In this document: positions 44,463-45,950 of the stretch, piece after piece
Numbering within the stretch: the stretch's first letter is position 1
Layout of the letters: every line of letters begins with the position of its first letter
Assembly: GCA_031422015.1 (NCBI GenBank)
Contig: JANOPO010000081.1
Coordinates: 2,981 to 66,980, forward strand
From: Flavobacterium sp.
GTDB taxonomy: Bacteria > Bacteroidota > Bacteroidia > Flavobacteriales > Flavobacteriaceae
Reading direction: 5' to 3'
Length of the DNA: 64,000 nucleotides
The notes under the pieces: generated by a model
What the model was told of the DNA's origin: nothing
Database searches by the model: none
The model's input: only the letters and a program-made list of their open reading frames with translations
Program-made: the position numbers and the translations under genes

Positions 44463-44534
44463 TTTGATTAGTATTATGGTTTAGGTACTATCTTAAGTTC
44501 CTATTTTTTATTGTTAATTTTTATATATTTGTTC

Positions 44535-44614
44535 TTAACAGAGAGAATGCATACTGTGATATTTCACTGAATGTATATCTTGTTTAGCCTCAACTTGTTT
44601 GGGGCTAATTTTTT
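44535..44614 (+). ncRNA. Candidate antisense sRNA over the transposase 3' tail
   Basis: TATATTTG at 44524-44531 (+), hairpin 44547-44576, 10-bp terminator stem 44584-44608 followed by T6. Confidence 0.45.
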
Positions 44615-45689
44615 GTTTATCTTCTGTTGATGCGGCTTGTGCAAAGCCTAACAGAGAAAAATGCTCCTGCTCCTTTTCTTGAATATTATATTGATATTGA
44701 GCATCATACGCTTCATTTTTATTCCATAAATGATAAATCATTACTAATAATTTCTTTTGAACAGCAACGTAACTTTTCATTTTTATTCCATGTTTTGCAT
44801 AGGTTCTGTCCCATAAATCCTTGAATGGTTTTACCTGACATTGTATGACTACTAATGAGGGCATATGCATCGCACGTCGTATTCTTGAATTGCCCCTTTT
44901 AGATATTTTTGTTTTTCCAACTCGTGTTCCAGATTGTGCCTCAATTACATCGTAACCTGCATAGGACACCAATTGTTTATAATTGTTAAATAACTCAAAA
45001 CCATTAGTTTCTGCCAAAACTGTTGCGGTTGTTAAAACGCCTAGACCTTTCATTAACAAAATATTTTCGACCTTCTTTGCTATACTTTGATCTGTTTTTA
45101 TGTGGCTTTTTATTGCTTTATTTAATTCTTTTATCTGTGTTTCAAACAAAGTGATGGTTTGTTGGAGTTGCTGATTTACTTCTTCGGATTGATGCATCGC
45201 AAATCCTAAAGCATCTAATTGATTTTTTAATACTGTTTTTAACTCGGTTACATTTTGATGTTGCCTTGTTAATAATCGTAATTGATAAAAAAATGTTCCC
45301 ATTGGTTGCCAAAAATCCAAGCATTGTTCTGCTCCCATTTGAGCTAATCCTTTTGCATCAATGGTATCGTTTTTTGATTTTAATCCAATGGCTTCCAAAT
45401 ATTTCTTGGCCTTATTGGGTAAAATTATCGATACATCTAAACCTTTTTCAAATAAATAATAAGCACAGTTTTCATGATAAATTCCTGTGGCTTCCATGCA
45501 AACCACAACAGGAATTTCTTCCTTTTTATGTTTAGCAATCCACTCTTGCAAGCTCTCAAATCCTTTTTTTGTGTTTGCTATAACACAACTGGATTTTACC
45601 GCTACTTTTTGTTTTTCATCAATGATACTCATACAAGCATTGATTTTTTTACTCGAAACATCTAATCCAACAGAATACTTTAAATTCAT
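44535..45689 (-). CDS. IS110-family DEDD recombinase/transposase (384 aa)
   Basis: RuvC-like GLDVS, CMEATG and KNDTIDA motifs; HhH KGLG; conserved YAG...QSG (catalytic Ser) and SKRGN. Start moved to the ATG at 45689. Confidence 0.95.
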   Translation of the reverse strand: MNLKYSVGLDVSSKKINACMSIIDEKQKVAVKSSCVIANTKKGFESLQEWIAKHKKEEIPVVVCMEATGIYHENCAYYLFEKGLDVSIILPNKAKKYLEAIGLKSKNDTIDAKGLAQMGAEQCLDFWQPMGTFFYQLRLLTRQHQNVTELKTVLKNQLDALGFAMHQSEEVNQQLQQTITLFETQIKELNKAIKSHIKTDQSIAKKVENILLMKGLGVLTTATVLAETNGFELFNNYKQLVSYAGYDVIEAQSGTRVGKTKISKRGNSRIRRAMHMPSLVVIQCQVKPFKDLWDRTYAKHGIKMKSYVAVQKKLLVMIYHLWNKNEAYDAQYQYNIQEKEQEHFSLLGFAQAASTEDKQKISPKQVEAKQDIHSVKYHSMHSLC

Positions 45690-45714
45690 AACGCTTTGAT
45701 TTATTGCGACAAAC

Positions 45715-45890
45715 AAAAAATTACAAGGGTCTTCGCTCATTTTTTATACAGCATCTAAATTTATAAAATAGTGCTTAAGTACTATTGAGACTTGAATCTA
45801 ATTAAAACCAAGTTGATTACCCTAATGTTCACAATATCAACAATGTCGTATTTCGCCCCGATACAATTTGGCAACTTGGTTTTGCTTATC
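45715..45890 (-). ncRNA. Candidate IS110 bridge RNA (target-binding and donor-binding loops)
   Basis: 12-bp stem 45872-45883 / 45804-45815 encloses guides ATCGGGGC and TTAG; second stem 45788-45794 / 45724-45732 encloses ATAGTAC and ATGAG. All four match the element junctions. RNA ends are approximate. Confidence 0.8.
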
Positions 45891-45950
45891 AATTTATACT
45901 ATTTCAAAGACACATAAATCATATATTTTTAATCGATGTAAAGATATGAG

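What the first reader, a model, noticed from the sequence alone, without database searches (positions are those of the whole stretch)
44483..45950. IS110 bridge-recombinase system whose four RNA guides can be matched to its own junctions
Seen on the minus strand: the left junction is ATCGGGG|CT|CATAT (core 45949-50) and the right junction is ATAGTAC|CT|AAA (core 44483-84). This reconstitutes target ATCGGGG-CT-AAA and donor ATAGTAC-CT-CATAT. The 259-bp non-coding end upstream of the DEDD transposase contains, 5' to 3': a stem arm AAAACCAAGTTG (45872-83); ATCGGGGC (45855-62, identical to left target + C); TTAG (45822-25, reverse complement of CT-AA); the perfect complementary arm (45804-15); then CAAGTCT (45788-94); ATAGTAC (45779-85, identical to left donor); a 7-bp hairpin (45762-68 / 45742-48); ATGAG (45736-40, reverse complement of CT-CAT); and a closing arm AGACCCTTG (45724-32). 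Established: IS110 elements such as IS621 use a two-loop bridge RNA with left guides identical to the top strand, right guides reverse-complementary, and a CT core. Inference: this is an intact, reprogrammable Bacteroidota bridge recombinase with a readable target code. The general mechanism is known; whether this element or clade has been described cannot be checked here.
Basis: partly seen in the sequence, partly recalled or inferred. Interest (0 to 1): 0.93.

Follow-up and report, generated by a model that had tools for sequence, protein, structure and literature searches.

The report
Flavobacterium IS110 bridge-RNA insertion sequence
This is a 1.47-kb IS110-family jumping gene from a Flavobacterium whose own two-loop guide RNA spells out the sequences it joins; the mechanism has been known since 2024, so the element is an ordinary new member, and the only fresh point is that its landing site is the repeat catalogued as the "Flavo-1 RNA" motif.

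Summary
The element (44483-45950, minus strand) encodes a 384-aa IS110 recombinase. It matches PF01548, PF02371 and NCBIfam "IS110 family RNA-guided transposase", and all five IS621 catalytic residues are conserved.

Upstream lies a two-loop bridge RNA. In 26 homologues its helices are 92.5% paired, against 33-47% in slid controls, and 18 pairs show compensatory changes.

The target guides are confirmed by comparison, not just by one match. Across relatives the 7-nt left flank tracks the LTG (200/231 identities against 159 when shuffled, 0/20000). The right flank tracks the RTG (TTAG/CTAG/ATAG/AAAG with CTAA/CTAG/CTAT/CTTT). The donor guides match the ends here, but ends and guides are invariant in this clade.

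Corrections:
The real one is 45775-69/45757-50.
- This copy carries two private substitutions at conserved non-coding positions.
- The two flanks may not be one original target.

New context: the target is the 5' end of the Rfam Flavo-1 repeat.

Verdict: a real new member of a known kind. RNA expression and recombination activity are untested.

The parts
44483..45950 (-). Whole IS110-family element including both CT cores (1468 bp; 1466 bp plus one CT)
   Evidence: Ends CTCATATCTT... and ...AAGATAGTACCT are conserved in 30+ homologous loci. Metagenome contigs of other copies stop matching at 44480/44482 and at 45953-45968.
44535..45689 (-). Recombinase gene, 384 aa. The true start is ATG 45689. 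The 401-aa ORF from ATG 45740 is an ORF-calling artefact.
   Evidence: PF01548 and PF02371. NF033542 at 195.9 bits against a cutoff of 140. D10, E66, D108, D111 and S253 align with IS621 D11, E60, D102, D105 and S241. The upstream ATG frame is closed by TGA in L003.
45711..45900 (-). Inferred bridge RNA of about 185-190 nt. The 5' end is inferred from the box at 45912-05, and the 3' end from the U-tract 45720-11 after the donor-loop closing stem.
   Evidence: Conserved block and covariation. The RNA ends are inference only; no RNA data were obtained.
45905..45912 (-). TGTCTTTG box. In nearly all relatives, and in the 81x consensus of this IS, it reads TATCTTTG, which matches the Bacteroidota -7 promoter consensus TAnnTTTG (own knowledge). 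It is a putative bridge-RNA promoter element, mutated A>G in this copy.
   Evidence: Alignment. Variant 45911. The promoter role is inferred.
45872..45883 (-). Target-binding loop (TBL) outer stem, 5' arm
   Evidence: Perfect 12-bp complement of 45804-45815. Helix 1 is 95% paired, with 5 pairs showing compensatory change.
45854..45862 (-). LTG, AUCGGGGCG. It is identical to LT plus the first core base (8/9). The last base, G, faces the core T position.
   Evidence: LT/LTG covariation.
45833..45852 (-). TBL inner hairpin (AAAUACGAC / GUUG-A-UAUU)
   Evidence: Helix 3 is 99% paired, with 3 pairs showing compensatory change.
45822..45825 (-). RTG, UUAG, the reverse complement of CT-AA
   Evidence: RTG classes follow RT classes in relatives.
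45820..45821 (-). TBL handshake guide, GG. The first G can pair with donor position 7 (C) but not with target position 7 (G).
   Evidence: Sequence. Rule from PMC11208158. AGG is invariant.
45804..45815 (-). TBL outer stem, 3' arm
45788..45794 (-). Donor-binding loop (DBL) outer stem, 5' arm, CAAGUCU
   Evidence: Pairs with AGAC..UUG at 45732-24. Helix 4 is 77.5% paired; its central 3 pairs are well kept and 3 pairs show compensatory change.
45777..45785 (-). LDG, AUAGUACUU. It has 7/7 identity to LD. UU opposite the core gives a U.G wobble and a U-A pair with the bottom strand.
   Evidence: Invariant in the clade, as is the right end.
45750..45775 (-). DBL inner hairpin, AGCACUA / UAG-A-UGCU.
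Evidence: Helix 5 is 94% paired, with 6 of 9 pairs showing compensatory change.
45736..45740 (-). RDG, AUGAG, the reverse complement of CT-CAT
   Evidence: Invariant with the left end in relatives.
45734..45735 (-). DBL handshake guide, CG. The C can pair with target position 7 (G) but not with donor position 7 (C).
   Evidence: L034 has A at LT position 7 and U at this position.
45724..45732 (-). DBL outer stem, 3' arm, AGAC-CC-UUG
45951..45957 (-). Left target half (LT), ATCGGGG, in the flank
   Evidence: The same 7-mer flanks independent copies.
44480..44482 (-). Right target half (RT), AAA. Only the first two bases are covered by the RTG.
44485..44491 (-). Left donor half (LD), ATAGTAC, at the right end of the element
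45945..46026 (+). Flavo-1 (RF01705) repeat whose 5' end (model ..UAG|CCccGAU) is cut by the insertion. It is the natural landing site.
   Evidence: 36 bits, E 1.7e-5, below the gathering score of 42. The same repeat without an IS in strain L043 scores 51.5 bits. Flavo-1 abuts the left end in 23 of 34 related loci scanned.
11692..11772 (-). Second, intact Flavo-1 copy. Its 5' end, read as ATCTGGG-CT-AAA, is an unoccupied near-cognate site with 1 mismatch to the LTG.
   Evidence: 80.3 bits. Sequence.

Best explanation
The element is a member of the IS110 group of the IS110 family, of the bridge-recombinase type exemplified by IS621. The left end encodes a bridge RNA of about 185 nt with two internal loops.

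[quoted passage not shown] In the donor loop, AUAGUACUU (LDG) and AUGAG (RDG) do the same for the joined ends ATAGTAC-CT-CAT of the excised circle. A tetramer of the DEDD/Ser recombinase (D10, E66, D108, D111, S253) then exchanges strands at the CT core. The one-base handshake guides (G after the RTG, C after the RDG) help by pairing with position 7 of the opposite DNA.

The natural target is the conserved 5' end of the Flavo-1 repeat (..ATCGGGG-CT-AAA.., that is uuUAG|CCCCGAU on the repeat's own strand). This gives the element many intergenic landing sites.

Shown here: protein family and catalytic residues, RNA helices by covariation, target-guide/flank covariation, ends, multicopy state, and target repeat.

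Inferred from IS621: circular intermediate, RNA expression and its ends, strand-exchange chemistry, and activity of this particular copy.
For: Protein:
- PF01548 and PF02371.
- NF033542 'IS110 family RNA-guided transposase', 195.9 bits against a cutoff of 140.
- Homology to the solved ISCro4 and IS621 recombinases (E 9e-33 and 3e-29), with all five catalytic residues aligned.

RNA structure (26 homologues):
- 37 pairs are 92.5% paired, against 33-47% when slid.
- 18 pairs show double changes.
- The covariation score is 0.362 against 0.180 when shuffled (0/500).

Target guides:
- LT against LTG gives 200/231 identities, against a shuffle mean of 159 (0/20000). Seventeen distinct pairs give 98/119 against 73.
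- RT positions 3-4 against the RTG give 45/52, against 32 (0/20000).
- Examples: GTCAGGG/GTCGGGG (L002), ATCTGGG/ATCTGGG (Polaribacter, 5 copies), CTGTGGG/CTGTGGG with CTTT/AAAG (L026), GGTCGGG/GGTCGGG (L033), and CTGA/ACAG (L024).
- Frequent A in the target opposite G in the guide fits the rG:dT tolerance reported for IS621.

Ends:
- Both termini are conserved in all loci.
- Independent copies lose similarity to the window at 44480/82, and just beyond the shared LT at 45957.
- Uninterrupted repeats reading ..ATCTGGGCT|AAACTTGTTTGC.. exist for the Polaribacter relatives. Their continuation equals the right flanks of L017, L020 and L021.
- Strain L043 has the same dapD flank with an intact Flavo-1 and no IS.

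Copy number: IS depth is 81 against 10-12 for both flanks in the source metagenome.

Donor guides: 7/7 and 5/5 matches at the IS621-equivalent loop positions, with chance about 0.012 for the 7-mer. A related row in the Durrant 2024 supplement pairs donor AACAGTAC|CT with guide ACAGTACTT.
Against: - No RNA evidence was obtained. The only candidate RNA runs are contigs at 0-5x depth over a relative, and they are uninformative.
- No circle junction or tandem junction GATAGTACCTCATATC was found in any fetched locus.
- No precise empty site with both of the window's own flanks was found.
- Donor ends and donor guides never vary in the 50+ loci, so the donor-loop assignment rests on the match itself and on analogy, not on covariation within this clade.
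- The LTG ends in CG, not CU, so one core position is unpaired in this clade.
- The window copy has two private substitutions at near-invariant non-coding positions, which may weaken it.
- MFE folding of the single sequence is no better than shuffles (z = +0.3). The structure is supported only by comparison.
Confidence: 0.92

Rival explanations
1. The same kind of element, but this particular copy is a weakened or immobile relic. Its bridge-RNA promoter box and a conserved linker base are mutated, so it persists only as a passenger, or can be mobilised only in trans by the about 6-7 other copies.
For: Compared with the 81x-depth consensus of the IS in the source metagenome, the window copy differs at only two positions in 1238 nt, and both lie in the 259-nt non-coding end. 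Position 45911 turns TATCTTTG into TGTCTTTG. Position 45798 turns the near-invariant ATTACA linker into ATTAGA.
Against: The ORF is full length with all catalytic residues. All guides and helices are intact. The effect of the two substitutions is unknown, and the promoter role of the box is only inferred. Bridge RNA from sister copies could act in trans, as shown for IS621 (PMC11208160).
Confidence: 0.25
2. The two flanks in the window do not come from one insertion event. Either two IS copies recombined (inversion or translocation), or the assembler joined two junctions through a multicopy repeat. In that case the 'reconstituted target' ATCGGGG-CT-AAA is a composite of two real half-sites.
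For: - IS depth is about 7 times that of the flanks, and unitigs break at both ends of the IS.
- In strain L043 the sequence to the right of the same Flavo-1 is unrelated to the window's right flank.
- In distant relatives sufS, not an IS or dapD, lies directly upstream of the lipoprotein gene.
- Relatives L044, L045, L046 and L050 show shuffled flank combinations.
Against: Each half-site on its own matches its guide. The Flavo-1 consensus (uuuUAG|CC) predicts A/T-rich sequence on the RT side, as observed. Gene order may simply differ between strains.
Confidence: 0.3
3. The internal copies of the flank and end sequences are not RNA guides. They are protein-binding subterminal repeats, or a captured fragment of the target repeat, and the recombinase reads the DNA directly.
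For: Before 2024 this was the default view of IS110 ends. The stretch ATCGGGGCGAAA in the element resembles the target ATCGGGGCTAAA over 11 of 12 bases.
Against: - A captured fragment would not explain the separate, reverse-complementary RTG, which lies 30 nt away across a covarying hairpin.
- It would not explain why LTG and RTG sit in loops closed by helices with compensatory changes.
- It would not explain the same layout for the donor ends.
- The homologous recombinases IS621 and ISCro4 have been solved; for IS621 the solved complex contains the bridge RNA (PMC11208158).
Confidence: 0.02

Closest known systems
IS621 (E. coli; IS110 group), bridge RNA and recombinase (Durrant et al. 2024, PMC11208160; Hiraizumi et al. 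2024, PMC11208158)
   Same: - RuvC-like DEDD domain plus Tnp domain with a catalytic Ser, all five residues aligned.
- Bridge RNA upstream of the gene in the left end.
- Order 5'-LTG-hairpin-RTG / LDG-hairpin-RDG-3'.
- 9-nt LTG and 4-nt RTG, with a CT core.
- Handshake position 1 pairs with the non-cognate DNA only.
- Even the LTG is similar: AUCGGGGCG here, and AUCGGGCCU in IS621 (the latter from my own recollection).
- It targets a repeated intergenic element.
   Different: - Distant in sequence: the only relatedness measure is the phmmer match, E 3e-29.
- The protein has a conserved C-terminal extension of about 50 aa.
- The LTG ends in CG rather than CU.
- Only about 15-20 nt precede the target-loop stem, so a 5' stem-loop like that of IS621 is not evident.
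- The host is Bacteroidota, with different promoter rules.
- The target is Flavo-1 rather than enterobacterial REP.
- No experiments exist.
ISPpu10 / ISPpu9 (Pseudomonas putida, IS110 family; bioRxiv 10.64898/2026.03.19.712850; PMC12288879)
   Same: They insert into one conserved intergenic palindromic repeat present in many copies. The ISPpu10 bridge RNA is reported to lack the 5' stem-loop and to need a hairpin in the target DNA next to the site. Here the target likewise lies at the foot of the Flavo-1 hairpin.
   Different: Different phylum, repeat family and guides. A structural requirement for the Flavo-1 hairpin is untested here.
ISCro4 recombinase (PDB 9t56)
   Same: Best solved-structure match (E 8.6e-33), with the same domain order.
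   Different: A distant homologue; only the protein was compared.
IS1111-group elements / seekRNA (own knowledge)
   Same: The same recombinase family and the same guide logic.
   Different: In that group the guide RNA lies downstream of the gene in the right end, and subterminal inverted repeats are present. Here it lies upstream.
Rfam RF01705, Flavo-1 RNA motif (Weinberg et al. 2010, PMC2864571)
   Same: The flank is a Flavo-1 copy, and the insertion point is model positions 5-6 (AG, which is CT on the IS strand).
   Different: Flavo-1 is catalogued as a candidate sRNA of unknown function. A transcriptome study found its hits in either orientation, with many not transcribed (PMC9723704). Its use as an IS110 landing pad is not mentioned in the papers found.

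Membership tests
IS110 family (bridge / RNA-guided recombinases) | N-terminal RuvC-like DEDD domain (PF01548) | tested here: met
   83.1 bits against a cutoff of 29. D10, E66, D108 and D111 align with IS621 D11, E60, D102 and D105.
IS110 family (bridge / RNA-guided recombinases) | C-terminal Tnp domain (PF02371) with a catalytic serine | tested here: met
   72 bits against a cutoff of 21.3. S253 aligns with IS621 S241.
IS110 family (bridge / RNA-guided recombinases) | Curated equivalog model NF033542 | tested here: met
   195.9 bits against a cutoff of 140.
IS110 family (bridge / RNA-guided recombinases) | CT core dinucleotide at both junctions, no long terminal inverted repeats, no multi-base target duplication beyond the core | tested here: met
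   CT is present at 45950-49 and 44484-83, and in all homologous loci. Only a 6-bp subterminal TATCTT/AAGATA inverted match is present.
IS110 group (as opposed to IS1111 group) | Structured non-coding RNA with two internal loops encoded in the left end, upstream of the recombinase gene | tested here: met
   Five helices, 92.5% paired, 18 pairs with compensatory change.
Bridge RNA | LTG identical to the top strand of the left target plus core; RTG complementary to core plus right target | tested here: met
   8/9 and 4/4 in the window. Covariation in relatives gave 0/20000 shuffles reaching the observed value for both guides.
Bridge RNA | LDG and RDG match the joined right and left ends (the donor) | tested here: inconclusive
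   7/7 (plus wobble-compatible core) and 5/5 in the window. Ends and guides are invariant in all loci, so no covariation test is possible. One related row in the Durrant supplement shows a matching change.
Bridge RNA | Handshake guides pair with position 7 of the non-cognate DNA and not with the cognate DNA | tested here: met
   G after the RTG faces donor C7, and C after the RDG faces target G7. L034 has A7 with U. The second handshake position does not pair.
Bridge RNA | The RNA is expressed and bound by the recombinase; a circular intermediate carries the RE-CT-LE junction; recombination is guide-dependent | not testable with these tools
   No usable RNA data. No junction in the fetched loci.
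Rfam Flavo-1 (RF01705), for the flanking repeat | Score at or above the gathering threshold of 42 bits | tested here: not met
   The interrupted window copy scores 36 bits. The uninterrupted orthologous copy in L043 scores 51.5 bits, and interrupted copies next to relatives score up to 76.8 bits. It is therefore best read as a degraded, cut member.

The most novel reading that the evidence does not exclude
The Rfam 'Flavo-1 RNA' motif may be chiefly a REP-like DNA repeat that serves as the landing pad for a Flavobacteriia-wide radiation of IS110 bridge recombinases. The main clade reads its 5' end (ATC[G/A/T]GGG-CT-A.). Other clades read its 3' half (L025, L028, and the upstream copy in L054). 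Guide variants track repeat variants between genera, for example ATCTGGG in Polaribacter. If the neighbouring hairpin is also required, as reported for ISPpu10, this would be a second, independent case of structure-gated bridge recombination. It would also be a ready-made multi-site safe harbour for genome engineering in Bacteroidota.
Probability: 0.5. Interest if true: 0.5.

Novelty: new member of a known kind. Interest (0 to 1): 0.35.

Why it matters
The mechanism is not new. The value is practical and descriptive.

It is a compact Bacteroidota-native bridge recombinase. Its four guides and first handshake position can be read directly. Its target guides have been naturally re-programmed in relatives, which gives a small natural specificity table (LTG and RTG variants with their sites).

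It also gives a function-related context to an orphan Rfam family. Flavo-1 repeats are the preferred insertion site, abutting the left end in 23 of 34 related loci. That should be kept in mind when Flavo-1 hits are annotated as sRNAs. It also explains why these IS copies break Flavobacterium assemblies at that motif.

Tried and rejected
- Rfam has no bridge-RNA family; nothing but Flavo-1 scored in the region.
- Single-sequence MFE folding gave z = +0.3, which is uninformative.
- Exact-protein look-ups of the recombinase (384-aa form), the lipoprotein and SufE found no other contigs.
- The metagenome scan with the neighbouring lipoprotein gave only 50-57% relatives with a different gene order, so no empty site.
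- The look-up of dapD gave L043, which is an empty Flavo-1 for the left flank only.
- Contig-level read laying showed no 1466-bp skip and no circle junction. Contigs drop rare variants, so this is not evidence of absence.
- Candidate RNA runs for a Polaribacter relative were low-depth contigs and uninformative about the bridge RNA.
- The sigma-70 promoter scan found fewer sites than shuffles, and it does not apply to Bacteroidota.
- The circle junction pattern is absent from all 61 loci.
- Literature searches found no paper linking Flavo-1 or Flavobacterium to IS110 bridge RNAs.
- The motif CAATAGTACTTAAG of this clade's RNA is not in the stored part of the Durrant supplement, although targets of the same Flavo-1 type are.
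Full report
**1. Observation**

- The left junction is ATCGGGG|CT|CATATC (core 45950-49).
- The right junction is GATAGTAC|CT|AAACC (core 44484-83).
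- The 12-bp arm 45883-72 has a perfect complement at 45815-04.
- ATCGGGGC is at 45862-55, TTAG at 45825-22, CAAGTCT at 45794-88, ATAGTAC at 45785-79, ATGAG at 45740-36 and AGACCCTTG at 45732-24.

The element is 1468 bp including both CT dinucleotides.

In the 64-kb window each of the two 7-mers occurs six times on both strands together. That gives about 0.012 expected per 259 nt each. Their joint presence in the left end, in the right order, is therefore not chance. The short TTAG and ATGAG strings are not significant by themselves.

**2. The protein**

The ORF 44535-45689 (384 aa) matches PF01548 (DEDD_Tnp_IS110) and PF02371. It also matches the NCBIfam equivalog NF033542, "IS110 family RNA-guided transposase", at 195.9 bits against a cutoff of 140. 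It is homologous to the solved ISCro4 and IS621 recombinases (E 9e-33 and 3e-29). D10, E66, D108, D111 and S253 align with the IS621 catalytic residues D11, E60, D102, D105 and S241.

The 401-aa ORF that starts at ATG 45740 is an artefact. The N-terminus MNLKYSVGLDVS is invariant in homologues, and the upstream frame is closed in relatives such as L003.

The closest relatives (75-100% identity) come from Flavobacterium and other Flavobacteriia. Most sit on contigs of about 1.45-1.5 kb, which are collapsed repeats.

**3. Related loci and ends**

A genome scan returned 39 loci from Flavobacterium, Polaribacter, Chryseobacterium, Weeksellaceae, Crocinitomix and Aquimarina. Exact-protein look-ups added 18 more.

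All loci that include the ends begin with CTCATATCTT and finish with AAGATAGTACCT. Lengths are 1379-1470 bp.

In the source metagenome the IS unitig has depth 81, against 10-12 for the unitigs that cross each junction. Contigs of other copies stop matching the window at 44480/44482 and at 45953-45968. Copies in other samples, with about 37-39 differences over the ~1476-nt aligned element (roughly 97% identical), match from 44480/82 to exactly 45957. That is through the shared 7-nt LT, after which they run on into other Flavo-1-like sequence.

For the Polaribacter relatives, many contigs carry the uninterrupted repeat ..ATCTGGGCT|AAACTTGTTTGC... The continuation equals the right flanks of L017, L020 and L021. 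This places both ends at the CT.

**4. The RNA**

An alignment of 26 non-redundant left ends gives an RNAalifold consensus. With the donor-loop closing stem added, the structure has 37 pairs.
- 92.5% of cells are paired, against 33-47% when the 3' partners are slid.
- 18 pairs have changes on both sides.
- The covariation score is 0.362, against 0.180 in shuffles (0/500).

The helices are:
- the target-loop outer stem (45883-72/45815-04) plus a 3-bp extension (45867-65/45818-16);
- the target-loop inner hairpin (45852-33);
- the donor-loop outer stem (45794-88/45732-24), which is the weakest at 77.5% paired;
- the donor-loop inner hairpin (45775-69/45757-50).

Folding the single sequence is uninformative (z = +0.3). 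Rfam holds no bridge-RNA family.

**5. Guides**

The layout equals that of IS621, which has a 9-nt LTG, a 4-nt RTG and an analogous donor loop (PMC11208160).

In the window:
- The LTG AUCGGGGCG matches LT plus core at 8 of 9 positions.
- The RTG UUAG is the complement of CTAA.
- The LDG AUAGUACUU matches LD at 7 of 7. Its UU can pair with the core's bottom strand by one wobble and one Watson-Crick pair.
- The RDG AUGAG is the complement of CTCAT.

The decisive evidence is comparative. The 7 nt left of the element change together with the LTG:
- L002: GTCAGGG with GTCGGGG.
- Five Polaribacter copies: ATCTGGG with ATCTGGG.
- L023: ATCGCGA with ATCGCGG.
- L026: CTGTGGG with CTGTGGG.
- L033: GGTCGGG with GGTCGGG.

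The two bases right of the core change with the RTG: TTAG-CTAA, CTAG-CTAG, ATAG-CTAT, AAAG-CTTT and ACAG-CTGA.

Permutation tests give the following:
- LT against LTG: 200/231 identities, shuffle mean 159, 0 of 20000 shuffles as high.
- 17 distinct pairs only: 98/119 against 73.
- RT against RTG: 45/52 against 32, 0 of 20000.

Many of the residual mismatches are A in the target opposite G in the guide. That is the rG:dT pair reported as tolerated for IS621.

The donor ends and donor guides are invariant in all loci. Their assignment therefore rests on the exact match, the loop position and the analogy. It gains some support from a related row in the Durrant supplement, where donor AACAGTAC|CT goes with guide ACAGTACTT.

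**6. Handshake guides**

Hiraizumi et al. showed that the two bases 3' of the RTG and of the RDG pair with positions 6-7 of the non-cognate DNA after strand exchange. They must not pair with the cognate DNA.

Here the base after the RTG is G. It can pair with donor C7 but not with target G7. The base after the RDG is C. It can pair with target G7 but not with donor C7. L034, whose left flank ends in A, has U at that position. The second handshake position does not pair.

**7. Target**

The flank left of the element is a copy of the Rfam Flavo-1 motif on the opposite strand, with its first bases replaced by the IS (36 bits). The reconstituted site TTT-AG-CCCCGAT equals the model's 5' end, uuUAGCCccGAU.

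Of 34 related loci scanned, 23 have a Flavo-1 hit (E<0.05) abutting the left end. In two members of a more distant subclade it abuts the right end.

The window holds one other Flavo-1 (11692-11772, 80 bits). It is unoccupied and has one mismatch to the LTG.

A different strain with an identical dapD protein (L043) has the same 132-nt flank and an intact Flavo-1 (51.5 bits) reading ..CCATCAGGG-CT-ATG.., with no IS.

Natural IS110 targets of this form (GGATTTCC..CAATCGGGGCTA..) are present in the supplementary target list of Durrant et al.. I found no text that links them to Flavo-1. Flavo-1 is described only as a predicted motif of unknown function, with hits in either orientation and many untranscribed.

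**8. Caveats**

- No RNA data, circle junction or two-sided empty site could be obtained.
- The right flank holds a hypothetical lipoprotein, SufE and an FeS-assembly protein. It is not what lies beside the same Flavo-1 in L043, and sufS, which precedes the lipoprotein gene in distant relatives, is missing. Because the IS is a 7-fold repeat in the sample, the two flanks may derive from two copies, through IS-IS recombination or through assembly. Each half-site still matches its guide.
- The window copy differs from the high-depth consensus at 45911 (TATCTTTG to TGTCTTTG) and at 45798 (ATTACA to ATTAGA). Both positions are near-invariant in homologues. The box resembles the Bacteroidota -7 promoter consensus TAnnTTTG (own knowledge), so bridge-RNA expression from this copy may be reduced. 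This is an inference.

**9. Comparison and verdict**

The element meets every sequence-level criterion of the IS110 group of bridge recombinases that could be tested.

It differs from IS621 in these respects:
- its phylum;
- a C-terminal extension of about 50 aa;
- a short 5' leader without an evident stem-loop (compare ISPpu10);
- an LTG that ends in CG;
- its target repeat.

It is a new member of a known kind. The mechanism was published in 2024, the protein family is already named as RNA-guided, and similar Bacteroidota targets are in published data sets. The Flavo-1 link is the one point worth following up.

Noticed in passing
window 45925-46095 (-) compared with L043 865-1036: The window and strain L043 are identical over 132 nt of the dapD-side flank, with 1 substitution. 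The 14 nt next to the IS then differ (ACTACAATCGGGG against TTTCCATCAGGG). The window's version pairs worse with its own Flavo-1 3' arm (36 against 51.5 bits). This may be gene conversion between IS copies running into the repeat.
   Followed up: partly
window 45798 and 45911: Both differences between this copy and the 81x-depth consensus of the IS fall in the 259-nt non-coding end, at positions near-invariant in homologues. These are the ATTACA linker between the two loops and the TATCTTTG box.
   Followed up: partly
window 43221-44462 (-) and L040, L041, L043: The IS right end lies 20 bp upstream of a hypothetical lipoprotein-SufE-FeS_assembly_P gene row that lacks the sufS found directly upstream in relatives. 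The gene order also differs from L043. This suggests an IS-mediated rearrangement or a join through the repeat.
   Followed up: partly
L054 560-800: Two IS110 copies flank a single Flavo-1. The upstream copy's right end (..GATAGTAC|CT|GTCCAC..) abuts the repeat's 3' half. The downstream copy's left end abuts its 5' end.
   Followed up: partly
L025 2689-2748; L028 2638-2714: In a more distant subclade (LTG ending ..GGGCU, RTG AUAG), the Flavo-1-like hit (model positions 12-65) abuts the right end. These elements therefore use the 3' half of the repeat.
   Followed up: partly
L023 2680-2700: The right flank begins CATAT, the same five bases as the element's own left end after the core. This is a donor-like or remnant site rather than the CTAG expected from its RTG.
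   Followed up: no
L044, L045, L046, L050: The same left flank occurs with different right flanks and vice versa. The cause is either recombination between IS copies or assembly chimeras through the repeat.
   Followed up: no
window 45941-45946 and 44489-44494 (-): There is a 6-bp subterminal inverted match, TATCTT in the left end and AAGATA in the right end. Both are invariant in homologues, and the left one is part of a TAnnTTT(G/A) box.
   Followed up: no
window 44535-44690 (-), residues about 334-384: The recombinase has a conserved C-terminal extension of about 50 aa (..HSVKYHSMHSLC) that is absent from IS621 and ISCro4.
   Followed up: no
window 26241-26260: ATCGGGGCG occurs on both strands as a palindrome. 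A weak CopA-like Rfam hit lies at 26207-26267 (31.8 bits, well below the gathering score).
   Followed up: no
window 44022-44145: High-depth contigs in three runs show a 'skip of 122 nt' joint here. Those contigs match only about 54 nt, with 6 mismatches, so the joint is probably from an unrelated conserved segment.
   Followed up: no
window 32578-39903 (-): A very long ORF of 2441 aa. It was not examined.
   Followed up: no
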